Source: Candidatus Poribacteria bacterium
Lineage (GTDB): Bacteria > Poribacteria > WGA-4E > PCPOR2b
NCBI GenBank assembly: GCA_965215015.1
Contig: OZ244042.1
Span: 4,096,001-4,160,000, forward strand
Direction of reading: 5' to 3'
DNA: 64,000 bases
The notes under the pieces are model-generated. The model ran no database searches. It was not told where the DNA came from and was given only the letters and a program-made list of their open reading frames with translations. Numbering within the stretch: position 1 is the stretch's first letter; each line of letters starts with the position of its first letter. Positions 2 to 20,247 of the stretch are shown one piece after another. Both the position numbers and the translations under genes were made by a program.

Positions 2-2083
2 CACTATTTTCGACAATACAAGGACGTTATTATCATAGATGAGGCACACCATTTTCGGAATGCCGGTTCCAAGCGCGGTCAATTTTTGATGGAACTCGCT
101 AAAGAGAAGCAGCTTTACCTCCTCACTGCCACGCCAATCAACAATAGCCTCAACGATATTTCTAATCTGATTAATTACTTTGGGCAGCACCCAAGCCACT
201 TTGCTCACATCGGTGTTCACGATTTCCGAAAACACTTTCGGGACATTGAAAAACGGTTTGAGGATGAACACGCCGAGATTGCCGAACAGGCTGACGACGA
301 AGATCTCTTGCGCCAAGACCCTGTTCTCAAACAAATTCTCATCCAGCGCAGCCGGGAATACATCAAACATGCTGAGAAGGAATCTGGGACTGATATCCTC
401 TTCCCTGAGCGTGTTATCCAACCTACGGTACAATACTCGCTCCGCCAAGTCTATCGCACGCTCTATAGTGAACTCCAAAGTGCTTTTGACCGGGATGATC
501 CGTTTCTCAATTTGGCAATCTACAACACTACCAGGTATCACAAAAATCCGCAGAGAGGGATACAGCAACGGCAAACGCAATTGATTGGTCTCCTCCGCAC
601 CCTTGTGCTCAAACGCTTGGAAAGCTCATGGCGAGCCTTTGAAGCCACTATTGAAAACCTACTTCTCAAGATGGCAGTTTGGCTCCAAAGATATGCCCCT
701 GAACGCTTTGACATGTGGGAGGCTACCAATCCGAGATGGTGGCGTGTTGTTCAGGTACACATCTGCGAAAGACTCCAAGAAGATGGAATCCTACAAGGAC
801 AATCCCCACAATATACAATCCCACTGGAAAATCTGCAAAACTCCGTTGCGTCCAACTCCTCGGAAGAAGAAGACGATATCGCTTCGGTTGAAAGCGAGGC
901 GGAATTCATTCCTGAGGATCACGATTTGGATCCTTTGTTTAATGATGTGGTAGACGATATGAATTTCTTAACTGGCCTCCTCAGTCGAATATACCGACGC
1001 TTCTATGCCGATCAGTTGGCTAGCGACCCGGATACGCAGAAGGATGATAAATTTCAACAACTCCTGAATCTCTTAAAAAAGCATCCGGACGAGAAATTAC
1101 TCATTTTTACCGAATTTTGCGACACCGCTCGCTACCTGTATGCCCAACTGCAAAATTCTGGCTTTGAGCAGCTCGCCCAAATTGATAGCCGCCGCAAGGT
1201 GAACCGTGAGGAGATTATTATACGCTTTTCGCCTTGCTACAACTGGAGGGACCCTCAAACGGTTGTGCCAATTCAGACGCTTATCACAACGGATGTCCTC
1301 GCTGAAGGGCTGAACCTGCAAGATGCGTCCATCATCATCAATTATGACCTGCATTGGAATCCTGTCCGGCTGATGCAACGAATCGGTAGACTGGACCGCC
1401 GCCTTGACCCAAAAATCGAGACACGACTCAACCGAATCAACCCGACTGTTCGCGTCTGGAATTTTCTTCCACCCGTGGAGCTCGATGACCTCCTCAAACT
1501 CCGCAGACGGGTTGATGGTAAAATCCTCCGCATCAGTCGAACCCTTGGCATTGAAGGTAAGTTTGTTTCACCGGATGACCCCGAAGAGACCATCCGTCTC
1601 TTTAACGAACAATATGATGGTACTGAAAGCATTGAAGAGCTGATGAACCTTGAACGTCAGCGAATCGCTGAATCACAACCCGATTTATGGGGTCAACTGC
1701 CAAACCTACCGCTGCGCCTCTTTTCGGGCAAACGCTCAAATGACGAACCACCACCTTTCCGTAATCGCGAAAACGAACTGATTCTACTTGAGCGCACCGG
1801 TGCCACCGGAATTTTCTGTTGTTATCAGATGCCAAACGATGAGGTTCAATGGTATTTCTATAACGCTGAAACTGATGAAGTGCTTGACAACATTGAGCAA
1901 ATCTGGCCTGAAATCCGATGCGGTGTGAAAACACCGCGCCATATTGAGGGTGGACAGGGTGGGCTCGTAGCCGCACAGAAAAAGGTTGAACGCCATATCC
2001 GCCGCACCTATCTTCGACGCATACAGGCCTCTATTGGAGCAAAGCCCAAACTTCTTGCGTGGATGGAAATTTCCTCAGGTTAA
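2..2083 (+). CDS. SNF2-like SF2 helicase (5' part outside window), partner of the downstream DNA methyltransferase
   Basis: Frame open from base 2: IIIDEAHHFRN (motif II), LLTATPINN (III), TTDVLAEGLNLQ (V), YDLHWNPVRLMQRIGRLDR (VI). Confidence 0.9.
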   Translation, partial: HYFRQYKDVIIIDEAHHFRNAGSKRGQFLMELAKEKQLYLLTATPINNSLNDISNLINYFGQHPSHFAHIGVHDFRKHFRDIEKRFEDEHAEIAEQADDEDLLRQDPVLKQILIQRSREYIKHAEKESGTDILFPERVIQPTVQYSLRQVYRTLYSELQSAFDRDDPFLNLAIYNTTRYHKNPQRGIQQRQTQLIGLLRTLVLKRLESSWRAFEATIENLLLKMAVWLQRYAPERFDMWEATNPRWWRVVQVHICERLQEDGILQGQSPQYTIPLENLQNSVASNSSEEEDDIASVESEAEFIPEDHDLDPLFNDVVDDMNFLTGLLSRIYRRFYADQLASDPDTQKDDKFQQLLNLLKKHPDEKLLIFTEFCDTARYLYAQLQNSGFEQLAQIDSRRKVNREEIIIRFSPCYNWRDPQTVVPIQTLITTDVLAEGLNLQDASIIINYDLHWNPVRLMQRIGRLDRRLDPKIETRLNRINPTVRVWNFLPPVELDDLLKLRRRVDGKILRISRTLGIEGKFVSPDDPEETIRLFNEQYDGTESIEELMNLERQRIAESQPDLWGQLPNLPLRLFSGKRSNDEPPPFRNRENELILLERTGATGIFCCYQMPNDEVQWYFYNAETDEVLDNIEQIWPEIRCGVKTPRHIEGGQGGLVAAQKKVERHIRRTYLRRIQASIGAKPKLLAWMEISSG

Positions 2084-2086
2084 TAA

Positions 2087-2800
2087 TTGTCTGAATCAGG
2101 ATTTTCAGGATGAAAGGATTGGCAGGATGATTTCATTCAGGTTGACAGTCTGTTCATGAGTGCCATAGAAGTATTTGCGGTTAGGATTTTAATGGCATTT
2201 GGGTGTTAGCCAAGCCGTATGCCGTAGCGGTTGTCTGAATCAGGATTTTCAGGATGAAAGGATTGGCAGGATGATTTCATTTAGACTGGCAGTCTATTCA
2301 TGCACACCCCAGAAGTATTTGCGGTTAGGATTTTAACGGCATTTGGGTGTTAGCCAAGCCGTATGCCGTAGCGGTTGTCTGAATCAGGATTTTCAGGATG
2401 AAAGGATTGGCAGGATGATTTCATTCGGACTGACAGTCTGTTCATGAGTGCCCCAGAAGTATTTGCGGTTAGGATTTTAATGGCATTTGGGTGTTAGCCA
2501 AGCCGTATGCCGTAGCGGTTGTCTGAATCAGGATTTTCAGGAGGAAAGGGTTGGGGGGATGATTTCATTTAGACTGGCAGTCTATTCATGCACACCCCAG
2601 AAGTATTTGGGGATAGGATTTTAATGGCAGTTGGGTGTTAGCCAAGTCGTATGCCGTAGCGGTTGTCTGAATCAGGATTTTCAGGATGAAAGGATTGGCA
2701 GGATGATTTTATTTAGACTGGCAGTCTATTCATGAGTGCCCTACAAGTATTTGAGGTTAGGAGTTTGATGGCAGTTGGGTGTTAGCCAAGCCCTATACCG
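2087..2800 (+). repeat. Tandem array of five 144-bp units (starts 2087, 2231, 2375, 2519, 2663)
   Basis: Each unit begins TTGTCTGAATCAGGATTTTCAGGATGAAAGGATTGGCAGGAT (variant in unit 4) and units 1-4 end GTATGCCGTAGCGG; exact 144-bp period. Confidence 0.97.
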
Positions 2801-2839
2801 TTTGATTCTATCCGAAAGAAAAAAAATGGAGATAATTTA

Positions 2840-5800
2840 GTGCCCCAAATAACGCCTGAGAATATTCACAGTATCTATAACTTTGACGCATTGTTAAACT
2901 TTTTGCGAGAAAAGCTTGACTGGCCCATCCCTGAAGGGGTTGAACTTGAAGATGTTGCCTTTCCTTGGTCCCCCGAAGATCTCGATCTGGATGAACCGAC
3001 TGAGGGGCGAATCATTGACTGTTGGCAGCTGCCGCCTTTCTCAACTGACCAGCTTGAACTCGGATTTCATGAGGGGGGCCAACCGTGGGGCATCTTTTTT
3101 GTCCAATTTAAGAGTGAATCCATCTATCGGACTGCCCTAAGACGTGTTCTACGTGGGCTTGTTGAGAGACGGGACCGAGATCCAAACCTTCCCGTTTGGA
3201 ATCATGATCAACTCCTCTTTATCTGTACCACAGATGACTTTCAACGCTTCGCTTTTGCACACTTCGCCTCCACCGAAAACTGGCACCGCGCTGTGCTCTC
3301 CATCTTTTCGTGGGAACAGGGAGATACCCACCTCCGCACCCTCTGCGAATATAACCTCCCCGCCCTCACGTTTCCAACAGGAGGATTCTCAAATAATCAG
3401 GACTGGCTCCGAGAATGGCAAGCAGCATTTGACGTGGAAGCAGTTACCGAAAAATTCTTTGCCGAATACCAACGTATCTTTGAACAGGTAGAAGCTGCAA
3501 TCGAGGGTATTCCAGCAAGCGAAAAAGCGCAACGTCGGTTGTATATGCAACGACTCTTCAACCGGCTGATGTTCCTTCGATTTGTTGAAAAGAAGAAGTG
3601 GCTTACCTACAACAGCGATTACAACTACCTACGCGCTCTTTTCAACGCTGCGAACGAAACTGACGAAAACTTTCTCAATGACCGGCTCTATTGGGCCTTC
3701 TTTAATGGACTCGGCACCGCAGCAGATTTACCTCACGACTGCGCTGAAATTGAGGAGCGGCGAGGTAAAGTTCCTTTTCTCAACGGTGGGCTCTTTGAGA
3801 TGCAAGAATATGATGAACGCCATGCGGTGCATATCCCTAACACTGAGTTTGGCAAAATTTTGGACCTTTTTGAGCGATACAACTTTACGGTAACCGAATC
3901 CACTCCACTTGATATTGAGGTTGCTGTTGATCCCGAGATGCTTGGAAAGGTGTTTGAAGAACTTGTGACAGCCAGACACGATACCGGCAGCTACTACACA
4001 CCGCGCCCGGTTGTCTCCTTTATGTGCCGAGAGAGTTTGAAAATCTGCCTTCGTAATAAAACCGATGAAACACCGGCATGTCTTCAAGCATTTGTCGATG
4101 CCGATGATGCGACGGCAATTAGGAATCCAGAGCAGGTATTACAGGTGCTTCAAACGCTCCGCATTTGCGACCCAGCGTGTGGGAGTGGTGCCTATCTGCT
4201 CGGAATGATGAGCGAACTGCTTCGCTTGCGCGATGCCCTGTTCCAAAGCAATCAGATTGATGCCAAAACGACCTATCAACGCAAACTGGACATCATTCAG
4301 GAAAACCTCTACGGCGTGGACAACGATGAATTCGCTGTCAATAATGCCATGCTCCGCTTGTGGCTTAGCCTCGCAGTTGATTATGAGGGTGATATACCAG
4401 AACCGTTGCCTAACTTAGACTATAAAGTTACTGTTGGAGATAGCGTAACGGGGCCTGCGCCTGAACCTTCCGATGGCCAACTCCGGTCCGAAGACAGTTT
4501 AATTCAACAGATTCAGGAACATAAAGCCAACTATCTGGTTACCCACACTGATTTTGAGAAACAGAGACTTCGAGAGAGGATTACCGAACTCAAAAGAGAT
4601 CTTCAAGGGTGGAGTGTAAGCCAGGATGAGTTCGTCTGGCAGGTCGAATTTTCAGAAGTCTTCCAGGAAGGTGGATTTGATATTATCGTCGGCAACCCCC
4701 CTTATGTGCGACATGAGCTTATCAGACCGATTAAACCGATTTTAGAACAGCGATTTTCGGGTTTTTTTGTAAGCACTGCGGACCTCTATGTCTACTTCTA
4801 TAAACGAGGAGCGGAATTGCTCCGCGGGGGCGGGATTCTCACTTATATCTCCTCCAATAAATTTTTGCGAGCAGGGTACGGTCGGAAACTCCGGCAGCTC
4901 TTGACGAATAAAATGTGCCTTCAAAAACTGCTCGATTTTGGGAGTGTGCCAGTTTTTGGGGCGAGTGTGGATACCTGTATTGTCCTTGTTGAAAACGCTA
5001 TTCCGGGGGGAGAGACGTTTGCGGCGGCAATCTTTCGTGACAAGGCCGATGTCCCTCGCCTCTCTACAGCGTTTCAAGAGCATGCGATTTCTATGTACGC
5101 CCGCGACTTGTCCCCAGATGGATGGACTTTGACATCACCGGAGGCACTGAAACTGCTCGAAAAACTCCAAGGAACCGGAACACCGCTGGGAGAATACATG
5201 GATGGTGATTTCTATATCGGCGTGGTAACAGGCTGCAATGAGGCCTTTATAATTGATGCCTTAACGCGTCAGCAGCTGATTGCTGAGGATCCCAATAGTG
5301 GTGAACTCATAAAATCCTTGTTTCGTGGACGCAATCTTCAAAAATGGAGAACAGAAGCAACAGACGAGTATCTTATAACAATAGCGAGCAGCGCGAACGT
5401 GGAATGGCCTTGGTCAAATGCAGCAAACTATTTAGAAGCGGAACAACTTTTCGCCCAAACTTATCCGGCAATTTATCAACATTTGAACGCTTATCGGGAA
5501 TCGTTGATTTGCCGTATCGACCAAGGCACATTTTATTGGGAACTCCGCTCCTGTTTTTATTATACCAAGTTTGAAAAACCGAAGATTGTCTACCGAGACA
5601 TGGCAAAGTTCTTCTCAGCAAGCTATGATACTAAGGGAACATTCAGTTTAAACACAACATTCTTCATACCCACCGGCGATCTCTCTTTACTCGCTATTCT
5701 GAATAGTCAGCTCTTTGATTGGTATGCCCGACACAAGTTTCAGACCCTTAACGACCCGTGGGCGGGAGGTGGGCTGCGTTTCTTTGTGCAGTATATGCGG

Positions 5801-6004
5801 CGTGTTCCGATAGCAGGCCGTACTGCGGTGCAAAAAGCAGCTTTGGCGCGTTTGGTTGAACGGATACTCATAGACCCCAAAGGTGATAAGGTACGTGACT
5901 TTGAGAGGGAAATAGATGCACAGGTCTATCAACTCTACGACTTAACAGATGAAGAGATTGCGTTGATTGAGCGGACATACGAGGAGGCAGGGATGCAGCG
6001 GTGA
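2840..6004 (+). CDS. Eco57I/TaqI-like (type IIG-related) N6-adenine DNA methyltransferase with C-terminal target-recognition domain
   Basis: GSYYTPR (X), DPACGSGAYL (I), DIIVGNPPYVR (IV), TaqI_C-like C-terminus; GGAG RBS before GTG. Confidence 0.88.
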   Translation: MPQITPENIHSIYNFDALLNFLREKLDWPIPEGVELEDVAFPWSPEDLDLDEPTEGRIIDCWQLPPFSTDQLELGFHEGGQPWGIFFVQFKSESIYRTALRRVLRGLVERRDRDPNLPVWNHDQLLFICTTDDFQRFAFAHFASTENWHRAVLSIFSWEQGDTHLRTLCEYNLPALTFPTGGFSNNQDWLREWQAAFDVEAVTEKFFAEYQRIFEQVEAAIEGIPASEKAQRRLYMQRLFNRLMFLRFVEKKKWLTYNSDYNYLRALFNAANETDENFLNDRLYWAFFNGLGTAADLPHDCAEIEERRGKVPFLNGGLFEMQEYDERHAVHIPNTEFGKILDLFERYNFTVTESTPLDIEVAVDPEMLGKVFEELVTARHDTGSYYTPRPVVSFMCRESLKICLRNKTDETPACLQAFVDADDATAIRNPEQVLQVLQTLRICDPACGSGAYLLGMMSELLRLRDALFQSNQIDAKTTYQRKLDIIQENLYGVDNDEFAVNNAMLRLWLSLAVDYEGDIPEPLPNLDYKVTVGDSVTGPAPEPSDGQLRSEDSLIQQIQEHKANYLVTHTDFEKQRLRERITELKRDLQGWSVSQDEFVWQVEFSEVFQEGGFDIIVGNPPYVRHELIRPIKPILEQRFSGFFVSTADLYVYFYKRGAELLRGGGILTYISSNKFLRAGYGRKLRQLLTNKMCLQKLLDFGSVPVFGASVDTCIVLVENAIPGGETFAAAIFRDKADVPRLSTAFQEHAISMYARDLSPDGWTLTSPEALKLLEKLQGTGTPLGEYMDGDFYIGVVTGCNEAFIIDALTRQQLIAEDPNSGELIKSLFRGRNLQKWRTEATDEYLITIASSANVEWPWSNAANYLEAEQLFAQTYPAIYQHLNAYRESLICRIDQGTFYWELRSCFYYTKFEKPKIVYRDMAKFFSASYDTKGTFSLNTTFFIPTGDLSLLAILNSQLFDWYARHKFQTLNDPWAGGGLRFFVQYMRRVPIAGRTAVQKAALARLVERILIDPKGDKVRDFEREIDAQVYQLYDLTDEEIALIERTYEEAGMQR

Positions 6005-6151
6005 GGCAGAGGGTTAAATTCGTTTTCCAGAAGTAAATCCGATGAGATTTTCACGGGCACTGCGAACTGATAATGAGGGAGACAAATTCTATCTAAGATT
6101 TGTTATTTCTGAACAAGGATTATATTTTTCCGTAAGTGGTTTAGCTAATCC

Positions 6152-6524
6152 GTCTGAATCAGGATTTTCAGGATGAAAGGATTGGCAGGAAGATTTCATT
6201 CGGACTGATAGTCTATTCATGAGTGCCGCACAAGTATTTGAGGGTAGGCGTTTAATGGCAGTTGGGTGTTAGCCAAGCCCTATGCCGTTTAATTCTATCC
6301 GAAAGAAAAAAAATGGAGATAATTCAGTGCCCCAAATAACGCCTGAGAATATTCACAGCATCTATAACTTTGACGCATTGTTAAACTTTTTGCGAGAAAA
6401 GCTTGACTGGCCAATCCCTGAAGGGGTTGAACTTGAAGCAGAGGGTTAAATTCGTTTTCCAGAAGTAAATCCGATGAGATTTTCACGGGCACTGCGAACT
6501 GATAATTAGGGAGGCAAATTCTAT
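6152..6524 (+). pseudogene. Internally deleted tandem copy of the methyltransferase cassette (one repeat unit + RBS + first 37 codons fused to the 3' flank)
   Basis: 6152-6438 matches 2665-2951; 6439-6524 matches 6007-6092; residual 40-aa ORF at 6327-6449. Confidence 0.92.
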
Positions 6525-12462: not shown

Positions 12463-13278
12463 ATGCATCCACTCGTAAATCTCAAAGTACAGGAGGGGGC
12501 TGTTGCCGTTCATTGGTTTGAGCAGAGCACCTTTGCGGTGAAGGATTCGCACGGAACAGTTGTACAGATTGACCCGTACTTTCCACACGATCGTCCCGCT
12601 GACAGATTTATCCACACCGAACCGCCGTTAGACGAATCTCAACTCCCGACGGACTATGTGCTATTGACACACAACCACGGCGACCACACTTGGCCTGAAT
12701 CAATTAACCGCATCCACAAAACTTCACCGGAGGTAAGGTGTGTCGGACCGGAAGAGAGTATCGCACAGGTGCTATCAGATACGGATGTTGACACAGCTCA
12801 CACGACGACAATCCATGCCGGTGAGTCAGCATCACTCGGAACTCTCACGGTTGACGCTGTCTATGCGAAACCGCCTAATGGACACCCCGCCGCAAATATA
12901 GCACCGCCCGATGTAACCCATCTCGGCTACGTCCTTAAAACGGATGGGGTAACACTCTACTTTTCCGGCGATCCCATCAATACCTTTGCCGACCACGATG
13001 CGCTGGTGAACGCTGTCGCTGCATACAATCCGGATATTGGATTCTTGACCAATCACCCGACGGAAGGTGAATTTCCGTTCTATCATGGCTGTGTAAAGAT
13101 GGCGCAACGGATTGGGCTTAAGCACGCTGTTCCCTCGCACCGATCCTGCTTTGTCACGCGGGATTATAATCCGGATGAGTGGGCGGCGCAATTTCCTGCT
13201 GATGGACCTCAGCCGCTGATCATTCCCCGAAATTCGCACGTTATTTATCCGAGTCTGAATCAGGATACTCAGGATTGA
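12463..13278 (+). CDS. Metallo-beta-lactamase-fold hydrolase (UlaG-like)
   Basis: IDPYF, THNHGDH, YFSGD, PSH; last residues come from the downstream repeat. Confidence 0.88.
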   Translation: MHPLVNLKVQEGAVAVHWFEQSTFAVKDSHGTVVQIDPYFPHDRPADRFIHTEPPLDESQLPTDYVLLTHNHGDHTWPESINRIHKTSPEVRCVGPEESIAQVLSDTDVDTAHTTTIHAGESASLGTLTVDAVYAKPPNGHPAANIAPPDVTHLGYVLKTDGVTLYFSGDPINTFADHDALVNAVAAYNPDIGFLTNHPTEGEFPFYHGCVKMAQRIGLKHAVPSHRSCFVTRDYNPDEWAAQFPADGPQPLIIPRNSHVIYPSLNQDTQD

Positions 13279-14246
13279 GGGATTGACAGGATAAAAACCG
13301 TGAATCGGATAATATCGGGATTCAAACCAACTGGTTCGTCAAGTTGATTGAGCTGATACCCTCTTGTCTGAATCAGGATACTCAGGATGGAAGGATTGAC
13401 AGGATAAAAACCGTCATCGGATAATATCGGGATTCAAATCAACTAGTTCGTCAAGTTGATTGAACTGATACCTCCTTGTCTGAATCGGGATACTCAGGAT
13501 GGAAGGATTGACAGGATAAAAACCGTCATCGGATAATATCGGGATTCAAATCAACTGGTTCGTCAAGTTGATTGAGCTGATACCCTCTTGTCTGAATCAG
13601 GATACTCAGGATGGAAGGATTGACAGGATAAAAACCGTGAATCGGATAATATCGGGATTCAAACCAACTGGTTCGTCAAGTTGATTGAACTGATACCTCC
13701 TTGTCTGAATCGGGATACTCAGGATTGAGGGATTTACAGGATAAAAACCGTGAATCGGATAATATCGGGATTCAAACCAACTGGTTCGTCAAGTTGATTG
13801 AACTGATACCTCCTTGTCTGAATCAGGATACTCAGGATGGAAGGATTGACAGGATAAAAACCGTGAAGTTGACTATGATACTGGTAGAGGGGCATGGGGG
13901 GCTATGCCTACTACTACCCCCTTGTCTGAATCAGGATACTCAGGATTGAGGGATTGACAGGATAACAGCCGTGAAGTTGACTATGATACTGAATAGGGGG
14001 GGCATGGGGTTGCTAGGCCTACTACTACCCCCTTGTCTGAATCAGGATACTCAGGATGGAAGGATTGACAGGATAAAAACCGTGAAGTTGACTATGATAC
14101 TGGTAGAGGGGCATGGGGTTGCTAGGCCTACTACTACCCCCTTGTCTGAATCAGGATACTCAGGATGGAAGGATTTGCAGGATAAAAACCGTGAAGTTGA
14201 CTATGACACTGATAGGGGGGCATAGGGGTTGCTATGCCTACTACTA
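13253..14246 (+). repeat. Tandem array of nine 108-113-bp units with a shared ~48-bp head and two body types (A x5, B x4)
   Basis: Head GTCTGAATC(A/G)GGATACTCAGGAT...CAGGATAA at 13253, 13366, 13478, 13590, 13703, 13816, 13924, 14035, 14144. Confidence 0.97.
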
Positions 14247-14267
14247 AGTTCGTAAAAAGGAATTAAA

Positions 14268-15179
14268 ATGGGTTGGAAAGAAGAACTTGCGTCCCTTATC
14301 CAAAACCGAAACACTCCTTCTAAACTACGCTTTGACGAACCACTCAGTAAGCATAACTATTTTGGTATAGGTGGCAGTGCGGCGGCGTATTTTGAAGTGA
14401 GCACAGTCGGCGAATTGACGTATGTGGCACAACTGAGAAACCATTGGCAAGTGCCGGTTGCTATCATCGGTCGGGGATCGAACCTGCTGGTCAGCGATGC
14501 CGGATATCCGGGGATTGTCGTCCGATTAATCGGGGAATTTGATCGGCTTGAGTTTGACCAAAACCGTGTTCGGGTAGGCGCGGGCGTTTCCTTACCACGG
14601 TTGTCGAAAATAGCGGCACGGCGTGGATTGAGCGGTGTTGAGTTTGCGCTTGGGATTCCGGGCTCTGTCGGGGGGGCGCTGATTATGAATGCAGGGGCTT
14701 GGGGCAGCAGCTTCGGTGACTTGGTCGAGCGTGTGCAGGTGATGACCCACGAAGGCGAGGTGGTAGATCTCAACCGTGATGATGCCCAGTTTAGCTATCG
14801 TCATAGCGGTTTGCACATCTACTTCTGTATTACACGGGCCGAGCTCACCCTGACACCCGGCGATGCGGCGGCAGTTGCTGATCGTATGCAAGATCTCTAC
14901 AACCAGAAAATTACGAGCCAACCCTTTGCGGAGGAAAACGCGGGGTGCATGTTCAAGAATCCCCCCGGTCATTCGGCCGGGAAGCTGATCGATGAATGCG
15001 GCTTGAAGGGCTATCGAGTTGGTGGGGCGGAGGTATCTAAAATCCACGGCAACTTCATCCTCAACCTCGGTAACGCAACCGCTCAAGATGTGTTATCACT
15101 TGTTCGCCATATCCAAGCCCACGTCAAACGAGAGAGGGGGGTTAATCTAGAGATGGAGGTTCAGCTGCTGGGGTTTTAA
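14268..15179 (+). CDS. murB: UDP-N-acetylmuramate dehydrogenase
   Basis: IGRGSNLLV, GIPGSVGGALIMNAGA, FSYRHS, AGCMFKNP, HGNFILN, LEMEV. Confidence 0.96.
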   Translation: MGWKEELASLIQNRNTPSKLRFDEPLSKHNYFGIGGSAAAYFEVSTVGELTYVAQLRNHWQVPVAIIGRGSNLLVSDAGYPGIVVRLIGEFDRLEFDQNRVRVGAGVSLPRLSKIAARRGLSGVEFALGIPGSVGGALIMNAGAWGSSFGDLVERVQVMTHEGEVVDLNRDDAQFSYRHSGLHIYFCITRAELTLTPGDAAAVADRMQDLYNQKITSQPFAEENAGCMFKNPPGHSAGKLIDECGLKGYRVGGAEVSKIHGNFILNLGNATAQDVLSLVRHIQAHVKRERGVNLEMEVQLLGF

Positions 15180-15232
15180 GGGTGAAAGCCCCCTGATTCA
15201 TCACTGAATTTAATGTGAAAAGGGAGTTAAAA

Positions 15233-16099
15233 ATGCTGAAATCTATAAGCGAAGATGTACTCGAGGCTGCCCGAGCAATTCTATATCCACAAGAGCTTTA
15301 TCACTTCGATTCAATTGCGGAAGGGATTTGGGGCGGTTTTGAAGCTGTAACGGATGCGGAGGTACAGTTTTTCCACAAGCACGGATACCTAGTCATCCAC
15401 GATGGGTTCAGTCCAGAAGAGGTGAGTGAAACATTGGATGGCATGCTGTACCTGATGGATGGGAAAAATCCAGATTACCGGGGTATTCAATATGAACCGA
15501 AGTTAGTGAAGCAAAAATCGGTGTTGTCCACGGAAGAGAGGCGCGATATCATCCGCAAAATTGCCAGTTTTGTGAAATTTGAGCCGCGTCTGAAAGCGAT
15601 ATCCGAGCATGAAGGCCTAATTACTGTCGTTGAACGCCTGATTGAGGACACGCCCAGGTTATTCCAAGATATGGGATTGATTAAACCACCGCATGTCGGT
15701 TCAGAGAAGCCGTGGCATCAGGACTGCGCTTACTTCAATTTGCCGTTGGATACACCGGTCGTTGCTGCTTGGATCGCCCTGGATGAAGCGACCCCCGAAA
15801 ATGGCTGTATGCACATCATCCCCGGTTCTCATAGAGAGGGGCCGGTGGTGCATTTCAACCGACGTGATTGGCAGATTTGCGATACGTATGTCCCCGTGAA
15901 TCGAGAGGTGATGGTGCCGCTCAAGGCGGGAGGATGTCTGCTTTGGCACGGACTGTTGCATCACGGTACGCCGGCAAATCGATCGAATTTGCGCCGCCGG
16001 GCCCTACAATTCCATTATTGCCCCGAAAGCACCGAAAAAATTAAGACCCAAGAGCGGATGGACGTGTTCGGAAGCGAAGGCAAAGCTGTTGAGTGTTGA
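15233..16099 (+). CDS. Phytanoyl-CoA dioxygenase (PhyH) family Fe(II)/2OG oxygenase
   Basis: KPWHQD, WIALD..ENGC..IPGSH, HHGTP..N...RR. Confidence 0.92.
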   Translation: MLKSISEDVLEAARAILYPQELYHFDSIAEGIWGGFEAVTDAEVQFFHKHGYLVIHDGFSPEEVSETLDGMLYLMDGKNPDYRGIQYEPKLVKQKSVLSTEERRDIIRKIASFVKFEPRLKAISEHEGLITVVERLIEDTPRLFQDMGLIKPPHVGSEKPWHQDCAYFNLPLDTPVVAAWIALDEATPENGCMHIIPGSHREGPVVHFNRRDWQICDTYVPVNREVMVPLKAGGCLLWHGLLHHGTPANRSNLRRRALQFHYCPESTEKIKTQERMDVFGSEGKAVEC

Positions 16100-16144
16100 A
16101 CGCAGAAACTTACAATGACTTAAATCAATCAAACAGGGAGAGTT

Positions 16145-18169
16145 ATGCGTTATATCGGCAGTAAATTAAATCTGTTATCCCAGATTGAAGGGGTCGTTGA
16201 CAATTTGGGGGTTAGAAAGGGGGTATTTTGCGACCTGTTCGCGGGCACAGTGTGTGTTGCGGCACACTTTAAACGCAAAGGATTTCAGATTATCTCTAAC
16301 GATTTTCTCGAACTCTCCTACGCCTTTCAGCGAGCATTGATTGCTAACAATGCGGAACCCGAATTTGCGAGTATTGTCGAAACACTCGGTGATGTACAAG
16401 ATGATAGCCTGTTTACTAACCTTTCACCATGCCATAAGGTGGTTGCCTGGTTGAACTGTCTCCCCGGCAAGAGAGGGTTTATCTTTCACAACTACTGTCC
16501 ATCAGGGAATAACGAATATGGTCGGCAATACCTATCCGATAGCAACGGACAGAAGATTGACGCAATCCGCCAACAGATTCAACAGTGGCGCGATGCAGGT
16601 GAGATCACGGAGAACGAATTTTATCTGCTGCTGCTACCGTTGTTGGAGGCGACATCGAAGGTCGCCAATATTTCTGGCACTTACGGCGCATATCTCAAAC
16701 ACTGGGATCCTCGAACTTATAAAGATTTGCCCATGGTTCCAGCTGAGATTATTCGGTCAGATGTGCGACATCAAGTGTTTCGGGGTGATGCAAATCAATT
16801 GATTGAGGCTATTCGGTGCGATGTCCTCTATCTTGATCCGCCGTACAACACCCGTCAATATATTACCAATTATCACCTGTTGGAGACCATTGCGCGGTAT
16901 GATGCCCCCCCTCTTCATGGGAAAACGGGGCTGCGCAACTACGAAGACGGGGAAAAATCGGCGTACTGCTCCAAATCAGATTGTTATCGCGCGTTCCAAG
17001 ACCTAATTGAAAAAGCAAACGCACGATATATTCTGGTGAGTTACAACAACGAAGGCATTTTGTCGCGTGATGAGGTGATGTCTATCCTTTCGCTTCGAGG
17101 TGAACCCCATTGCAATTCCCCCATTGATTACCGGCGGTTCAAAAGCAACTCTCATGGCGATCAACCCGCTTTAGATAACCGTGTACAGGAGTTGCTGTTT
17201 CACCTTGAAGTGACAACACCTCCAAAACAATCTCGGCAAAAAAATAAAGAGGAAGAACCAAAACGACGCTACGACCCACGGAACAAACTCAATGATCTCT
17301 CTGGGAGTGAGTGGACATATTTCCTCAACTCGGTTGAACTGGAAGGGACAGAACACAATCTAGGAAGACTCAACGATCTGTCTGAGGAGGAGTGGGCAAT
17401 TGCATCGGCCCCTGTTTGGGATACGCACTATCCGACCAATGGTCCCCAATCTGATGCCCATCACATTCGGAAGCAGCACCCGTCGCCAAAACCACCGGCA
17501 TTGATGAAACGCCTAATCGAGTTTTTTACGAAAGAGGGAGGGCGTGTTCTGGACCCGTTTGTTGGGGTCGGTGGAACGCTGTTAGCGTGTTCAATGGCTG
17601 GTAGGCATGGTGTTGGAATCGATCTATCGCAGGGCTATCGTGAGATTTACCACCAAGCCTGCGCTCAACTTAGCTTAGAACCGCAGCCTTTCCTGTGTGG
17701 AGATGCGAGGGATTTAGAGAATCTCTTAGGAGAAGTTGTGCCGTTCGATCTGCTCTTGACCGACCCACCTTATGGTGATATGCTCTCTCGGAAGCGTAGC
17801 GGTGACCGAAAAAAGAGAACAGGAGATGATAGTCCAACGCCCTTTACAGACAGTCCTGATGATCTGGGGAATATGCCGCCATCTCAGTTTTACAAATCGC
17901 TTAAGACGGTGATTGTTCACGCGATGCAGCACCTCAAACCGAAAGGGTACGTTGTCATTTTCTGCAAAGATCTCCAACCGACCGAAAAGTACCATAACAT
18001 GATTCACGCCGATGTTGTCAAAACCCTTACGGATGTCGAAAATTTGCGGTTTCGAGGCTACAAAATTTGGTATGATAAATCGCTGAAACTTTACCCGTTC
18101 GGTTATCCGTATGCATACGTTTCCAATCAACTCCATCAATTCAGTCTGATTTTCCGAAAGGAGGATTGA
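16145..18169 (+). CDS. Fused double DNA methyltransferase (Dam/FokI-like N6-adenine domain + second N4/N6 domain)
   Basis: N-half: MRYIGSK, DLFAGT, YLDPPYN; C-half: HPSPKP, VLDPFVGVGGT, LLTDPPYG. Confidence 0.88.
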   Translation: MRYIGSKLNLLSQIEGVVDNLGVRKGVFCDLFAGTVCVAAHFKRKGFQIISNDFLELSYAFQRALIANNAEPEFASIVETLGDVQDDSLFTNLSPCHKVVAWLNCLPGKRGFIFHNYCPSGNNEYGRQYLSDSNGQKIDAIRQQIQQWRDAGEITENEFYLLLLPLLEATSKVANISGTYGAYLKHWDPRTYKDLPMVPAEIIRSDVRHQVFRGDANQLIEAIRCDVLYLDPPYNTRQYITNYHLLETIARYDAPPLHGKTGLRNYEDGEKSAYCSKSDCYRAFQDLIEKANARYILVSYNNEGILSRDEVMSILSLRGEPHCNSPIDYRRFKSNSHGDQPALDNRVQELLFHLEVTTPPKQSRQKNKEEEPKRRYDPRNKLNDLSGSEWTYFLNSVELEGTEHNLGRLNDLSEEEWAIASAPVWDTHYPTNGPQSDAHHIRKQHPSPKPPALMKRLIEFFTKEGGRVLDPFVGVGGTLLACSMAGRHGVGIDLSQGYREIYHQACAQLSLEPQPFLCGDARDLENLLGEVVPFDLLLTDPPYGDMLSRKRSGDRKKRTGDDSPTPFTDSPDDLGNMPPSQFYKSLKTVIVHAMQHLKPKGYVVIFCKDLQPTEKYHNMIHADVVKTLTDVENLRFRGYKIWYDKSLKLYPFGYPYAYVSNQLHQFSLIFRKED

Positions 18170-18202
18170 CATACTCCCACACGCTAAAGCGTGGGGATTC
18201 TT
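18166..18202 (-). mobile_element. Solo IS200/IS605-like right-end hairpin
   Basis: Minus strand AAGAATCCCCACGCTTTAGCGTGTGGGAGTATGTCAA: subterminal hairpin ending in TCAA; no tnpA/tnpB adjacent. Confidence 0.65.
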
Positions 18203-18470
18203 ATCCCTGTGCATAACGTGCGGGCGAGCACACGTTGGAAACCCCGATAAGATTGGGGGCAGGCCCTGTGGCTACGAGTAAATTGCCATTGTCGGCGGAC
18301 AAAGTCGGACACAATATTTACATGCAATCGCCCTGACATTAAGCCAAGATTAGCTTGACACACTTAGTGTGGATGTTGTTTAATATTTCCTGTGTCAACA
18401 CAATAAACAGTAGGTAAAGCCGTTTCAAGGTATGGAAGCGGAGTTAATTTTCTACTACAGGAGGTTTCTC

Positions 18471-19274
18471 ATGCTAACACAAGCACAAATTAACGGATAT
18501 AACAAAGAGGGTTACGTCAAGGTTGAAGGGCTTTTCACTCCTGAAGAGGTTGAAGAGCTCGGATCTGAAATGGTTCGGATTATTGGCGAATGGGGAGAGG
18601 AGACTATCGGATGGCGGGGACCGTGGCGCGAGAAATACCTTGCCGAAGATGAACAGCAAACGACCAAAGCGGTGTTCATGCACAATCCCCATTTTTATTC
18701 AGCGACCTGGGGCCGTGTAATCTTTCACGAAAGGCTGGTGGGATGTGTTCAGGATCTGATCGGTCCCAGCGTCCAATGGCATCACACCGTTTTACACGCA
18801 AAGCCCCCGGAGCGCGGGACACCTTTCCCGATGCACCAAGACTATCCCTTCTATCCCCACGACGGCCTAGACTTTGTCGACTGTCTCGTTCACCTCGACG
18901 ATACGCCACTTGAGAGCGGAAGCCTCTGTGTCGTGCCGGGTAGCCATAAGAATGGCGGGCTTGAACACATCATGGGGCCTGATACTGCGCCTCACCTGCC
19001 GACCGATGTGTATCACCCGGACAGGGTGGAATCTATTCCGATTCCTGCCAAGGCGGGAGATGTGATATTCTTTAGCTACTGCGCTATCCACTGGTCCAAT
19101 GTGAACAGAACCGATCAGTGGCGCCGGTCTGTTCGCTTCGGTTATCATGATTCGGCGATGCGCCCCGTTGGTCGATACGAGGATGACCCGTACCGGATTG
19201 ATCCCAACAACGTACTGGAGGGCAACACCAATACCATCGTCTCCGGCTTTAAGACAAATCCAGTCGTGAGCTAA
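18471..19274 (+). CDS. PhyH family dioxygenase
   Basis: FPMHQDY, VVPGSH, IHWS..N..RR; AGGAGG RBS. Confidence 0.92.
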   Translation: MLTQAQINGYNKEGYVKVEGLFTPEEVEELGSEMVRIIGEWGEETIGWRGPWREKYLAEDEQQTTKAVFMHNPHFYSATWGRVIFHERLVGCVQDLIGPSVQWHHTVLHAKPPERGTPFPMHQDYPFYPHDGLDFVDCLVHLDDTPLESGSLCVVPGSHKNGGLEHIMGPDTAPHLPTDVYHPDRVESIPIPAKAGDVIFFSYCAIHWSNVNRTDQWRRSVRFGYHDSAMRPVGRYEDDPYRIDPNNVLEGNTNTIVSGFKTNPVVS

Positions 19275-19359
19275 TCGTTAAGGAAACAGAGGCGGGGACT
19301 CGGTTTCTGGTCCTGCCAATTCGTGAATTCCGATTGATTTTTGGAGGAGATATTCTTTT

Positions 19360-20247
19360 ATGGCATTAACAGAAAACACCTATGCGAAACCGTTCATTGT
19401 CGATAAGAATTTGGGCGCGAACTTAGATCCGGAGCAGACCGATTTAACCCGAACCAATGCGGACGGTCAACCGGTGATTGAACTCACTCAGGAACAGAAA
19501 TACGTCTTCGATAGTAAAGGGTGGGTATTGATTCCGGGTGTGCTGACGGAAAATGAAGTTAAAGAGATGAGGGAATTTGGCTCCCAATTGCGTAATGCCC
19601 CGGATTCTATCCCTGAACATGAGCGTTCCCCTCTCGGTGGGCCGATGCAAAAACTTGCCGATCATCCACTTGTGGTGGGGTTCATGAACGAGTTTGTGGC
19701 CTACCCGGCGTTGGCGAACCAAGATTGCTACGGCTTCCGTATGGAATCTTGCAGCCTATTCTACCGAACAATCGGCGATGGCGCATTCGGGCCTCACAAC
19801 GGTAATGGACTGTGGCGTTTTCCGGGCGACTCGCATTTCTATCACTGTGTTCCCGGTAGGGCGCACAGCGGTTTAACCCGTGTGGTATGGGAGATGAATC
19901 CGGTGAAAAAAGGACAGGGCGGCACCCTGTTCGTCACTGCAAGTCATAAGGCGGTATACACCGCTCCCCCAAGCATTCAGGAGCCTAATTCATCCCTTTG
20001 GGATACTTATGCTTGTCCTGCCGGCTCGTTGATGTTTTTCACCGAAGCCCTAACTCATAGCGGCACAGCATGGACAAACACAGAAAATGACCGGCTCGCT
20101 ATCTTTAGCTGTTATAACACAGTTGACACTAAATGGCACGATTGGGATCCGCACCCGAAACTCCTAGAATCGATGCCGCCGAAGCGTCGCACCCTTTTCC
20201 GTCCCGTTCATGCCGCGAACAACCTCATTAGTTCGGAGGATGTCTGA
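19360..20247 (+). CDS. PhyH-like Fe(II)/2OG enzyme with H-x-G in place of H-x-D
   Basis: QKYVFDSKGW, GPHNG, FVTASHK, FTEALTHSG. Confidence 0.75.
   Translation: MALTENTYAKPFIVDKNLGANLDPEQTDLTRTNADGQPVIELTQEQKYVFDSKGWVLIPGVLTENEVKEMREFGSQLRNAPDSIPEHERSPLGGPMQKLADHPLVVGFMNEFVAYPALANQDCYGFRMESCSLFYRTIGDGAFGPHNGNGLWRFPGDSHFYHCVPGRAHSGLTRVVWEMNPVKKGQGGTLFVTASHKAVYTAPPSIQEPNSSLWDTYACPAGSLMFFTEALTHSGTAWTNTENDRLAIFSCYNTVDTKWHDWDPHPKLLESMPPKRRTLFRPVHAANNLISSEDV

What the first reader, a model, noticed from the sequence alone, without database searches (positions are those of the whole stretch)
2087..2800. Structured 144-bp tandem array inside a helicase-methyltransferase locus
Seen: five exact-period units fill the gap from the helicase stop (2083) almost to the methyltransferase RBS, so they are probably co-transcribed. 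Each head carries four AGGAT motifs spaced 9/8/9 nt. A variable segment keeps base pairing across copies: TAGACTG-G-CAGTCTA (units 2, 4, 5), CGGACTG-A-CAGTCTG (unit 3), CAGGTTG-A-CAGTCTG (unit 1). That is a T-A to C-G compensatory change plus G.U-compatible changes. Units 1-4 alternate roughly ABAB. Inference: an RNA or ssDNA array used by, or regulating, the defence pair. Alternatives are a CsrA/RsmA-type GGA sponge or plain REP amplification. G-ward changes in unit 4 could be sequencing error.
Basis: partly seen in the sequence, partly recalled or inferred. Interest (0 to 1): 0.72.

Follow-up and report, generated by a model that had tools for sequence, protein, structure and literature searches.

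The report
Amplified repeat array, not defence RNA
The five 144-base units are a local pile-up of a small repeated DNA element that litters this sponge-symbiont genome and, unusually, occurs almost unchanged in several distant bacterial phyla; nothing ties it to the two defence genes beside it.

Summary
The array is real: 2087-2801, period 144, 5.0 copies, four AGGAT boxes per head.

It does not look like a device of the helicase-methyltransferase pair.
- The 42-nt head occurs 270 times in this genome. It forms 32 direct arrays with many different tails, 12 inverted (hairpin) arrays and 46 single copies.
- A second array lies in front of murB in the same window.
- Three congeners keep the orthologous helicase-methyltransferase junction without any head.
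- The 104-nt tail was found in none of 40 relatives. Half of it is the inside of a ~250-nt MITE.
- The proposed stem shows no significant covariation.
- No CsrA gene was found.

Best reading: a REP/BIME- or MITE-like mosaic that inserted and then multiplied locally.

Two results raise the interest.
- The head is present with 26 fixed bases in Nostocales, Poribacteria, Chloroflexota, Bacteroidota, Latescibacterota and giant sulfur bacteria. I could link no transposase, RAYT, Ssn or XisH gene to it.
- It sits at the stop codon of large Eco57I-type restriction genes far more often than chance allows.

This scan had already noted the same repeat family at two other loci of this genome (e1-6649072, e1-6649362).

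The parts
2087..2801 (+). Tandem array: five 144-nt units, each a head, a palindrome segment and a MITE-interior segment
   Evidence: TRF period 144, 5.0 copies, 90% matches. Alignment A1 has 93% mean column identity.
2087..2128 (+). Head of unit 1 (TTGTCTGAATC plus four AGGAT boxes). The other heads are at 2231-2272, 2375-2416, 2519-2560 (three boxes altered) and 2663-2704.
   Evidence: The genome-wide consensus of 270 copies is.
2282..2296 (.). 15-nt palindrome TAGACTGGCAGTCTA of unit 2. Equivalents are at 2138-2152, 2426-2440, 2570-2584, 2714-2728 and 6201-6215.
   Evidence: 97.6% paired, with covariation no better than 100 of 500 shuffles.
2323..2376 (+). Second half of the tail of unit 2, with equivalents in each unit. 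It matches the interior of a dispersed ~250-nt MITE whose ends are TGAGGGGTGCTCATAA...TTATGAGCACCCCTCA. The unit junction shares TTGT with that MITE.
   Evidence: 20 further places in the genome match tail positions 51-104 at 81-91% identity; flanks aligned by eye.
2..2083 (+). SNF2-family helicase, 5'-truncated by the window edge
   Evidence: Pfam Helicase_C 2.5e-18 and SNF2-rel_dom 7.5e-11. PADLOC HKD+Snf2 1.5e-35 and DrmD 1.1e-27.
2840..6004 (+). Eco57I-family N6-adenine methyltransferase of type IIG kind, 1054 aa
   Evidence: Pfam Eco57I 1.4e-38 and TaqI_C 9.9e-12. PADLOC REase_MTase_IIG 1e-111.
6152..6438 (+). Solo sixth unit plus a copy of the methyltransferase 5' leader and its first ~112 coding bases. 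It duplicates 2665-2951 at 94% identity.
   Evidence: the repeat finder family D1; sequence.
6002..6092 (+). 91-nt direct repeat, with its second copy at 6434-6524 (97% identity), bracketing the relic. Together with 6152-6438 it reads as the scar of a tandem duplication of the methyltransferase gene followed by an internal deletion (inference).
   Evidence: the repeat finder family D3.
13253..14246 (+). Second head array (about 5 units of 113 nt and 4 of 109 nt, with other tails). It is inserted exactly at the stop codon of the MBL-fold gene, in front of murB.
   Evidence: TRF, sequence, Pfam MurB_C and FAD_binding_4, empty-site comparison.

Best explanation
The array is non-coding repeat DNA. 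It is one of 44 clusters of two or more copies of a dispersed, modular repeat family, whose constant part is a 42-nt head (TTGTCTGAATC followed by four AGGAT boxes about 9 nt apart).

Inferred history at this site:
1. A mosaic element landed just behind the helicase stop codon. It consisted of a head, a short palindrome segment and part of a ~250-nt MITE.
2. A 144-nt stretch of it was duplicated at a TTGT microhomology.
3. Unequal crossing-over or replication slippage between the repeated units then expanded it, first to an AB dimer and then to ABAB plus one more unit.

The same family behaves like REP/BIME or MITE DNA elsewhere. It is nearly always intergenic. It often starts at or just after a stop codon. 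It forms hairpin (inverted) doublets and alternating arrays. It is present or absent at orthologous sites. It carries neighbouring sequence along when it multiplies.

The evidence shows the family, its distribution, the empty and filled sites, and the absence of the array in orthologous helicase-methyltransferase loci. I infer the order of events and the recombination mechanism. What moves the head, and whether it has any effect on expression, is unknown.
For: Abundance and arrangement of the head
- The head 14-mer (up to 1 mismatch) occurs 270 times in the 5.94-Mb genome, against 1 for the reversed control.
- 273 full heads fall in 90 clusters: 46 single copies, 32 direct arrays holding 141 heads, and 12 mixed-orientation arrays holding 86 heads. 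Periods range from about 100 to 370 nt.
- 201 of 224 heads are intergenic by my crude gene calls.

This array is specific to this genome
- The whole tail is found only at the 5 units and at 6192-6288, and in 0 of 40 relatives. Its second half matches 20 other places in the genome, which are the interior of a MITE with terminal inverted repeats.
- Three congeners with the orthologous helicase-methyltransferase junction have 31-, 152- and 112-nt spacers and no head. A fourth, with a different upstream gene, has none either.

Empty and filled sites at murB
- 11 of 15 congeners have only a 14-nt spacer between the MBL-fold gene and murB.
- This genome has a 1-kb array starting at the stop codon.
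- One congener (G002) has a single head with related flanks.

Copy number and unit pattern
- This genome has 270 heads; its 19 congeners have 17-68 each.
- The ABAB identity pattern is shown.

Nothing points to a coding or known RNA role
- No ORF of 50 aa or more lies in the array.
- No Rfam match reaches gathering score in the window.
Against: - The + strand of a unit folds better than shuffles (-43.9 kcal/mol, z -2.62, 0 of 200 shuffles as good). The - strand gives z -1.74. An RNA role is therefore not excluded.
- No terminator-like site lies between the two genes, so the array is probably transcribed with them.
- No transposase or other mobilising gene could be linked to the head. RAYT/Y1_Tnp has only 2 degenerate hits, far from heads. 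No ORF of transposase size lies between inverted heads in this genome.
- The target-site duplication at the murB site is at best 3 nt (AGT) and uncertain.
- A single head is not a palindrome, unlike classical REPs.
- Heads are strongly enriched behind Eco57I-type genes. A purely neutral or selfish model does not predict this.
Confidence: 0.7

Rival explanations
1. The head is a cis-element functionally tied to large type IIG (Eco57I-family) restriction-modification genes. It could be a 3' hairpin or terminator, a recombination hot spot, or a landing pad that lets these genes duplicate, move or swap ends. On this reading the array is a by-product of that activity at a methyltransferase gene.
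For: - 13 of 22 Eco57I-family genes of 900 aa or more have a head within 2.5 kb downstream, and 2 more have one overlapping the stop. The figure for all 4670 crude genes is 3.6%, and for other genes of 900 aa or more it is 10 of 141. Fisher odds ratio 42, p = 4e-14.
- In six of the 22 genes the stop codon is the TGA of GTCTGAATC.
- In a sample of 30 TaqI_C-bearing genes from relatives, 12 from 12 genomes have GTCTGAATC at or within 6 nt of the stop. Most of these carry a CGGAT/CAGAT-box variant of the head (read by eye; my automated count of AGGAT-type heads within 1.2 kb was 8 of 30).
- In a cyanobacterium, all 3 large Eco57I-type genes that I examined have a co-oriented head within 36 nt of the stop. 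Two of the three, compared directly, are only 26-31% identical in parts to a Poribacteria one.
- The window holds a scar of a tandem duplication of the methyltransferase gene that starts at a head.
Against: - 30 of 44 multi-copy clusters and 185 of 273 heads are not near such genes.
- In an unselected cross-phylum sample, 0 of 33 upstream ORF ends were methyltransferases. 12 carried C-terminal domains of other gene families, among them GlpX, GUN4, a histidine kinase and Uma2.
- The Poribacteria genes are paralogues, so their heads may be inherited and not independent events.
- I chose the 3 cyanobacterial genes after seeing heads nearby in a listing. In a Dehalococcoidia genome, the 2 genes I looked at had no adjacent head.
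- At this locus the array lies upstream of the methyltransferase, not behind it.
Confidence: 0.2
2. The array is a co-transcribed structured or protein-binding RNA (or ssDNA) that serves or regulates the helicase-methyltransferase pair.
For: - The array is on the same strand as both genes, with no terminator-like site between them.
- The + strand fold has z -2.62.
- The palindrome pairs in 97.6% of cells.
Against: - The array is absent from the 3 orthologous junctions.
- The tail was found in no relative.
- Covariation is not above shuffles.
- Genome-wide, direct arrays have no preferred orientation to their neighbours.
- The same head stands in front of murB.
Confidence: 0.06
3. The heads act as a CsrA/RsmA-type GGA sponge RNA.
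For: CAGGATG-like boxes resemble the CsrA-binding core (recalled, not from a call).
Against: Pfam CsrA (PF02599) gave no match in 5 of 5 genomes. These include this one (98% complete, one contig) and two other phyla with 136 and 377 exact heads. The same search found CsrA in E. coli, B. subtilis and T. maritima.
Confidence: 0.01
4. The copy number, or unit 4's G-ward changes, are assembly or consensus artefacts.
For: Unit 4 differs from unit 2 mainly by changes to G.
Against: - Unit sequences and both flanks recur in contigs of several independent runs.
- The period is exact with no indels.
- Similar arrays are common in this and other complete genomes.
Confidence: 0.05

Closest known systems
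REP / BIME elements of enterobacteria and REPINs of Pseudomonas (recalled from general knowledge; PMC3733652 seen as abstract in a search listing; PMC3184786 seen as passages)
   Same: Short, high-copy and extragenic. Often lies right behind stop codons. Forms inverted doublets that make hairpins, clusters with alternating orientation and alternating spacers, and mosaics with other short motifs.
   Different: - A single head is not a palindrome. It is four direct AGGAT boxes behind GTCTGAATC.
- It has no GTAG or CGTC tag.
- No RAYT gene is flanked by heads.
- Long direct arrays carry along neighbouring sequence.
- Near-identical copies occur in several phyla, whereas REPs are species-specific (recalled).
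Bacterial MITEs, e.g. the 147 'type II' MITEs of Anabaena sp. 90, which have no matching IS (PMC3542288: passages and rows of Table S4)
   Same: Non-coding and intergenic, with inverted ends, filled and empty sites between relatives, and no parent IS in the same genome. Part of the 144-nt unit is the interior of a ~250-nt element with terminal inverted repeats.
   Different: - The target-site duplication is not clear.
- The head also occurs alone and in head-to-tail arrays with periods down to 40-63 nt.
- I could not check whether the Anabaena sp. 90 MITE groups contain the head. The paper gives coordinates only and the chromosomes were not at hand.
TAACTGA direct repeats shared by Beggiatoaceae, Cyanobacteria and Bacteroidetes (PMC4679880: abstract and passages)
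   Same: A short intergenic repeat with a patchy distribution over much the same distant lineages. It is suspected of horizontal spread, with no known mechanism.
   Different: That repeat is a heptamer in short runs, mostly just upstream of start codons. This one is a 42-nt composite, more often at gene ends, and it also occurs in Poribacteria, Chloroflexota and Latescibacterota.
NTS / Ssn-related motifs and the GIY-YIG single-strand nuclease Ssn (PMC11893778: passages)
   Same: A widespread repeat that starts with a GTC-containing tag, can form hairpins and occurs in hundreds of copies. It is a precedent for finding the partner protein by co-occurrence.
   Different: - The published degenerate motif does not fit: the position after GTCW must be Y and here it is G.
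- This genome has no small GIY-YIG protein, only matches in frames of 279 and 618 aa.
- No heads lie beside any of the 6 GIY-YIG loci I inspected in three genomes.
ToxI-type antitoxin RNA arrays (type III toxin-antitoxin) and CRISPR arrays (recalled)
   Same: A tandem array directly upstream of a gene on the same strand, in a defence-gene neighbourhood.
   Different: - The downstream gene is a methyltransferase, not a ToxN-like RNase.
- The units are 144 nt long.
- The 'spacers' are copies of one another (81-97% identical over whole units), not unique sequences.

Membership tests
REP/BIME | High-copy, extragenic | tested here: met
   270 copies against 1 for the control. 201 of 224 are intergenic by crude gene calls.
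REP/BIME | Each unit is a 20-40 nt imperfect palindrome with a GTAG or CGTC tag | tested here: not met
   The head consensus is GTCTGAATC plus four direct AGGAT boxes and has no internal palindrome. Only inverted pairs of heads form hairpins.
REP/BIME | Clusters of units in alternating orientation with alternating spacers | tested here: met
   12 mixed-orientation clusters, e.g. 29 heads alternating at 103/40 nt near 1.70 Mb. The array under study is direct, not alternating.
REP/BIME (REPIN-RAYT) | A RAYT (IS200-like Y1 transposase) gene flanked by the repeat | tested here: not met
   PF01797 gives 2 degenerate matches in this genome (one with a stop, one partial), neither beside heads.
MITE | Terminal inverted repeats | tested here: met
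   Inverted head pairs ending GTCTGAATCAGGAT...ATCCTGATTCAGAC occur in several phyla. A ~250-nt element has the ends TGAGGGGTGCTCATAA / TTATGAGCACCCCTCA. The 144-nt unit itself has no inverted ends.
MITE | Filled and empty sites between relatives | tested here: met
   The murB spacer is 14 nt in 11 of 15 congeners, against a 1-kb array here and one head in G002.
MITE | Target-site duplication and a parent IS with the same ends | tested here: inconclusive
   A 3-nt AGT duplication at the murB site is possible. No ORF of transposase size lies between inverted heads in this genome. Other genomes were not surveyed for one.
CsrB/RsmZ-type sponge RNA | A CsrA/RsmA protein in the same genome | tested here: not met
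   PF02599 matched 0 of 5 genomes; the controls rang in 3.
Ssn-related motif (SRM) | A small GIY-YIG ssn gene, usually flanked by the motif | tested here: not met
   There is no small GIY-YIG gene in this genome. No heads lie in the 6 GIY-YIG loci I inspected.
Type III toxin-antitoxin (ToxIN-like) | The array is followed by a ToxN/AbiQ-type endoribonuclease | tested here: not met
   The downstream gene is an Eco57I-family methyltransferase.
CRISPR | Constant repeats separated by unique spacers | tested here: not met
   The stretches between heads are copies of one another. Cas genes were not searched for.
Any Rfam family | Match at or above gathering score | tested here: not met
   0 matches in the 64-kb window. 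Only 3 chance-level hits at E up to 10 in 2000-2900.

The most novel reading that the evidence does not exclude
The 42-nt head (GTCTGAATC plus four AGGAT boxes) is the cis-site of a trans-acting system that has not been identified, such as a recombinase, a nuclease or a nucleic-acid-binding protein. That system has spread by horizontal transfer through at least six phyla. It lodges preferentially at stop codons, notably those of type IIG restriction-modification genes, and it actively drives tandem amplification of whatever lies beside it. On this reading the arrays in Poribacteria, Nostocales and Dehalococcoidia are products of one undescribed mechanism and not of passive slippage.
Probability: 0.25. 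Interest if true: 0.75.

Novelty: new variant of a known kind. Interest (0 to 1): 0.4.

Why it matters
For the finding as given, the result is mostly negative. A striking array next to defence genes is amplified repeat DNA, and it should not be annotated as a regulatory RNA, a CRISPR-like array or a Csr sponge.

The wider family deserves a note for four reasons.
- A 42-nt sequence is kept almost letter for letter in hundreds of copies per genome across Cyanobacteria, Poribacteria, Chloroflexota, Bacteroidota, Latescibacterota and giant sulfur bacteria. That is unusual for REP- or MITE-like DNA.
- It has no identified mobilising gene.
- It forms arrays in distant hosts.
- It is enriched at the ends of large restriction-modification genes.

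Finding its partner protein, as was done for the NTS-Ssn pair, could reveal a new way in which short DNA elements move between phyla and reshape restriction-modification loci. These repeats also break short-read assemblies.

Tried and rejected
- **RNA evidence.** No RNA holder was listed for window 1200-4200, so transcription and processing remain untested.
- **Copy number from reads.** The four runs I laid are short contigs that break at the heads, and none spans the array. Cover over unit 4's altered head (bins 2505-2571) is low in X1, X2 and X5. One X6 contig joins 2521 to 2801 (side 34, at 90% likeness). Neither is firm enough to show a sequencing error or a copy-number variant.
- **Literature by sequence.** Five 14-15-nt strings of the head and its complement found 2 unrelated papers. 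Word searches found no description of this element. Papers seldom print such sequences, so 'not in print' is not shown.
- **Anabaena sp. 90 MITE table**. It gives coordinates only, so I could not match it to the head. The head hit on that strain's 56-kb plasmid lies 5 nt behind the gene ANA_P20014 and is unannotated.
- **Phage collection.** No match.
- **Candidate partner genes.** RAYT, CsrA, XisH (absent from two genomes with 248 and 377 heads, a pseudogene here) and the small GIY-YIG Ssn show no co-occurrence or adjacency.
- **ORF between inverted heads.** The only case is a 451-bp stretch holding a 71-aa membrane-protein gene. That gene otherwise follows one subfamily of the Eco57I-type genes, and it is not a transposase.
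- **Neighbours of two other Eco57I-type genes.** A Schlafen/AlbA_2 protein and a ParA-like ATPase beside one, ordinary oxidoreductases beside the other, and no recombinase.
- **Replication-strand bias.** 44 heads are on the putative leading strand and 34 on the lagging strand. The GC skew of this genome is too weak to place the origin.
- **C-terminal methyltransferase motif.** A search for it upstream of cross-phylum heads gave 0 of 141, and 0 in the control.
Full report
**1. The observation**

The sequence at 2087-2801 is a perfect-period tandem array: period 144, 5.0 copies, 90% matches, no indels. It starts four bases after the stop of a 5'-truncated SNF2-family helicase (ORF 2-2083). It ends 39 bases before the GTG start of a 1054-aa Eco57I-family methyltransferase at 2840-6004. 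No ORF of 50 aa or more lies in it on either strand.

Each unit opens with TTGTCTGAATC and four AGGAT boxes starting at unit positions 12, 21, 29 and 38. In unit 4, three boxes are altered, mostly by changes to G. Units 1 and 3 match at 139 of 144 positions, units 2 and 4 at 135, and units 1 and 2 at 132, so the ABAB pattern is real.

On the six copies that exist, only one pair changes on both sides, in 2 of 6 copies. 100 of 500 column shuffles reach the same covariation score. The two C-G copies are units 1 and 3, which are sister units, so this counts as about one event.

**2. The head is a genome-wide repeat**

- The same head opens a solo sixth unit at 6152.
- It also opens nine units at 13253-14246, about five of 113 nt and four of 109 nt with quite different tails. 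These lie between an MBL-fold gene and murB.

In the whole genome (one contig, 5.94 Mb, 49% G+C), the head 14-mer with up to one mismatch occurs 270 times, against once for the reversed control. I required two further boxes and allowed two mismatches. That gives 273 heads in 90 clusters: 46 single copies, 32 direct arrays (141 heads) and 12 arrays of mixed orientation (86 heads). Direct arrays have periods from about 100 to 370 nt. Mixed arrays alternate + and - heads at fixed pairs of distances such as 103/40 or 99/49, which means hairpin doublets in series.

Of 224 full heads, 201 are intergenic by my crude gene calls. Direct arrays have no preferred orientation to their neighbours: 9 co-oriented, 12 opposed, 6 between convergent and 5 between divergent genes. 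Single heads point at a co-oriented downstream gene in 33 of 46 cases. The first head of a run lies within -15 to +10 nt of a co-oriented stop codon in 10 of 102 runs, against 2.4% for random intergenic positions.

**3. What the 144-nt unit is made of**

The 104-nt tail as a whole occurs only in the five units and in the solo copy. It was found in 0 of 40 related genomes.

Tail positions 51-104 match 20 other places in the genome at 81-91% identity. With their flanks, these places are copies of a ~250-nt element with terminal inverted repeats (TGAGGGGTGCTCATAA ... TTATGAGCACCCCTCA). The left end of that element carries a variant head with CAGAT/CGGAT boxes.

In that element the matching stretch runs ...GCCGTAACGGTTGT|GGGG. 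In the array it runs ...GCCGTAGCGGTTGT|CTGAATCAGG. The unit boundary therefore sits on a TTGT shared by the MITE interior and the head. I read the unit as a mosaic of small repeats that was duplicated internally at this microhomology and then expanded. This is inference.

**4. Orthologous sites**

The methyltransferase has orthologues at 84-86% identity in 4 of 19 congeners.
- In three of them the helicase ends ...PKLLAW(M/L)E(I/V)S, as it does here. It is followed by 31, 152 or 112 nt and then the methyltransferase start, with no head.
- In the fourth, the upstream gene differs, and there is still no head.

At murB, 11 of 15 congeners have only a 14-nt spacer, TAA AGCGAGGAATTAAA ATG or a close variant. 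In this genome the array starts exactly at that stop codon, so the MBL-fold ORF now reads 8 codons into the head. One congener (G002) has a 520-nt mosaic there, containing a single head with related flanks. Three others have different insertions.

This genome has 270 heads, against 17-68 in each of its 19 congeners. The arrays are therefore recent, lineage-specific amplifications of inserted repeat DNA.

**5. Tests of the functional readings**

- Rfam gives nothing at gathering score in the window. At E up to 10 in 2000-2900 it gives only three chance-level hits.
- A unit folds better than shuffles on the + strand (-43.9 kcal/mol, z -2.62). The minimum-energy fold pairs part of the head with one arm of the palindrome, not the palindrome with itself. 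The - strand gives z -1.74.
- There is no terminator-like site and no + strand promoter-like site in 1800-3100. Four identical promoter-like sites lie on the - strand inside the units.
- CsrA is absent from this genome and from four other head-rich or related genomes. The same search finds it in three control genomes.
- No RNA run was available.

**6. The head in other phyla**

They came from Nostocales (Dolichospermum, Anabaena, Sphaerospermopsis, Cronbergia), Candidatus Poribacteria, Latescibacterota, Dehalococcoidia/Chloroflexota, Bacteroidota (Pontibacter, Chitinophagales, Tannerellaceae, Symbiothrix), Thiomargarita/Thioploca/Thiotrichaceae and a Desulfobacterales genome.

The exact 14-mer occurs 377 times in one 4.0-Mb Dehalococcoidia genome and 136 times in a Sphaerospermopsis genome, against 0 for the controls. 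Some lie in arrays with periods as short as 40-63 nt.

Conservation stops sharply at both ends of the head. Many copies are hairpin doublets, and cyanobacteria also have direct arrays with their own tails.

Within the order of this genome, copy number runs from 1 to 270. It ranges from 4 to 248 within a single other genus. That pattern is more like a selfish element than a host signal.

Of 141 cross-phylum heads with enough flank, 33 have a co-oriented open frame of 70 codons or more ending at the head, and 7 of those use the head's own TGA. Pfam recognises the C-terminal domains of 12 of the 33. They include GlpX, a cobalamin adenosyltransferase, GUN4, a histidine kinase, the UvrD tudor domain and two Uma2 proteins. 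None is a methyltransferase.

**7. The link with restriction-modification genes**

This genome has 22 Eco57I-family genes of 900 aa or more. Thirteen have a head within 2.5 kb downstream, and in two more the head overlaps the stop. The comparison figures are 3.6% of all 4670 crude genes and 10 of 141 other genes of 900 aa or more (odds ratio 42, p = 4e-14). 14 of the 44 multi-copy clusters (88 of 273 heads) lie beside these genes.

In one paralogue group the last codons are ...GAA AAT GTC TGA, so the stop codon is part of the head. Many arrays elsewhere repeat the last ~30 bases of such a gene in front of each head. This agrees with two earlier notes of this scan on other loci of this genome.

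In a sample of 30 TaqI_C-bearing genes from relatives, 12 from 12 genomes have GTCTGAATC at or within 6 nt of the stop, mostly with the CGGAT/CAGAT variant (read by eye; the automated count of AGGAT-type heads within 1.2 kb was 8 of 30).

In the Sphaerospermopsis genome, all three large Eco57I-type genes that I examined have a co-oriented head within 36 nt of the stop. Two of the three, compared directly, are only 26-31% identical in parts to a Poribacteria one. I picked those three after seeing heads nearby in a listing. Two such genes in the Dehalococcoidia genome have no adjacent head.

The association is therefore real in this genome, but it is partly explained by paralogy. Across phyla it is suggestive and not proven.

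**8. The partner of the head**

I could not identify what moves or reads the head.
- RAYT/Y1 transposase: two degenerate matches, far from heads.
- XisH: absent from two genomes with 248 and 377 heads.
- No transposase-sized ORF lies between inverted heads here.
- The neighbours of two other Eco57I-type genes include no recombinase.

**9. Comparison with what is known**

In position, copy number, hairpin doublets, alternating clusters and mosaic build, the family works like REP/BIME and REPIN elements. In its empty and filled sites, and in its link with an inverted-repeat element, it works like MITEs.

It fails the defining tests of REPs: palindromic unit, GTAG/CGTC tag and RAYT association. 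It only partly meets those of MITEs: the target-site duplication is unclear and there is no parent IS.

Its spread across phyla resembles that of the TAACTGA repeats of Beggiatoaceae, Cyanobacteria and Bacteroidetes (PMC4679880), for which no transfer mechanism is known. The 147 'type II' MITEs of Anabaena sp. 90 (PMC3542288) may include it, but I could not check this.

I found no description of this sequence. That is weak evidence of absence from the literature.

**10. Verdict**

The array is real and ordinary in kind: locally amplified mosaic repeat DNA, not a conserved part of the helicase-methyltransferase system. Confidence is about 0.7.

The family it belongs to is unusual in two respects. 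The head is conserved across phyla, and it is enriched at the ends of type IIG genes. That keeps open, at about one in four, the reading that an unidentified trans-acting system recognises the head and drives both its spread and the arrays.

Noticed in passing
window 6002-6524: Scar of a rearrangement behind the methyltransferase gene. A 91-nt direct repeat (6002-6092 and 6434-6524, 97% identical) brackets a copy of unit 5, the methyltransferase leader and its first ~112 coding bases (6152-6438 against 2665-2951, 94% identical). This reads as a former tandem duplication of the whole gene, starting at a head, followed by an internal deletion.
   Followed up: partly
window 12463-14285: A 1-kb head array is inserted exactly at the stop codon of the MBL-fold gene, so that ORF now runs 8 codons into the head. 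It separates that gene from murB, which in 11 of 15 congeners follows after only 14 nt. Translational coupling of murB may have been lost.
   Followed up: yes
genome G000, e.g. C1:3797369-3800935, 5414668-5418174, 3333297-3336842: The genome carries 22 Eco57I-family genes of 900 aa or more. 13 have head arrays within 2.5 kb downstream and 2 more have a head on the stop codon. In six genes the stop codon is the TGA of the head.
   Followed up: yes
genome G000, 20 places listed (e.g. C1:2049535, 3760662, 1921534): A ~250-nt MITE-like element with ends TGAGGGGTGCTCATAA / TTATGAGCACCCCTCA. Its left end holds a head variant with CAGAT/CGGAT boxes. It may be the MITE noted earlier in this scan (e1-1509669), but I did not compare the two.
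   Followed up: partly
genome G000 C1:1270423-1270635, 1002246, 1835916, 4392802-4394004, 4885686-4886161: A 71-aa predicted membrane protein gene follows one subfamily of the Eco57I-type genes (those ending ...YRLGLGN). Fragments of it are repeated together with heads in the array near 4.393 Mb. One full copy lies alone between inverted heads.
   Followed up: partly
window 2186-2645, minus strand: Each of units 1-4 carries the same sigma-70-like site on the minus strand (TTGGCT, 16 nt, TAAAAT), pointing back towards the helicase gene. These are consensus matches only, and the four are copies of one sequence.
   Followed up: no
window 15215-20247: Three PhyH-family dioxygenase paralogues (15215-16099, 18432-19274, 19360-20247) surround a fused D12-class and N6_N4 DNA methyltransferase (16145-18169).
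   Followed up: no
L179 (Sphaerospermopsis record), 1200-2830: Behind a 1369-aa Eco57I-type gene lie four co-oriented heads and then four or five heads in the opposite orientation. Together they form one large palindromic block, flanked by heptamer runs (TAATTCG repeated).
   Followed up: partly
L230 6938-9214 (G000 C1:3800938-3803214): A Schlafen/AlbA_2 protein with a HATPase_c_4 domain (408 aa) and a ParA-like AAA_31 ATPase (347 aa) stand directly upstream of one Eco57I-type gene. This may be a three-gene defence module.
   Followed up: no
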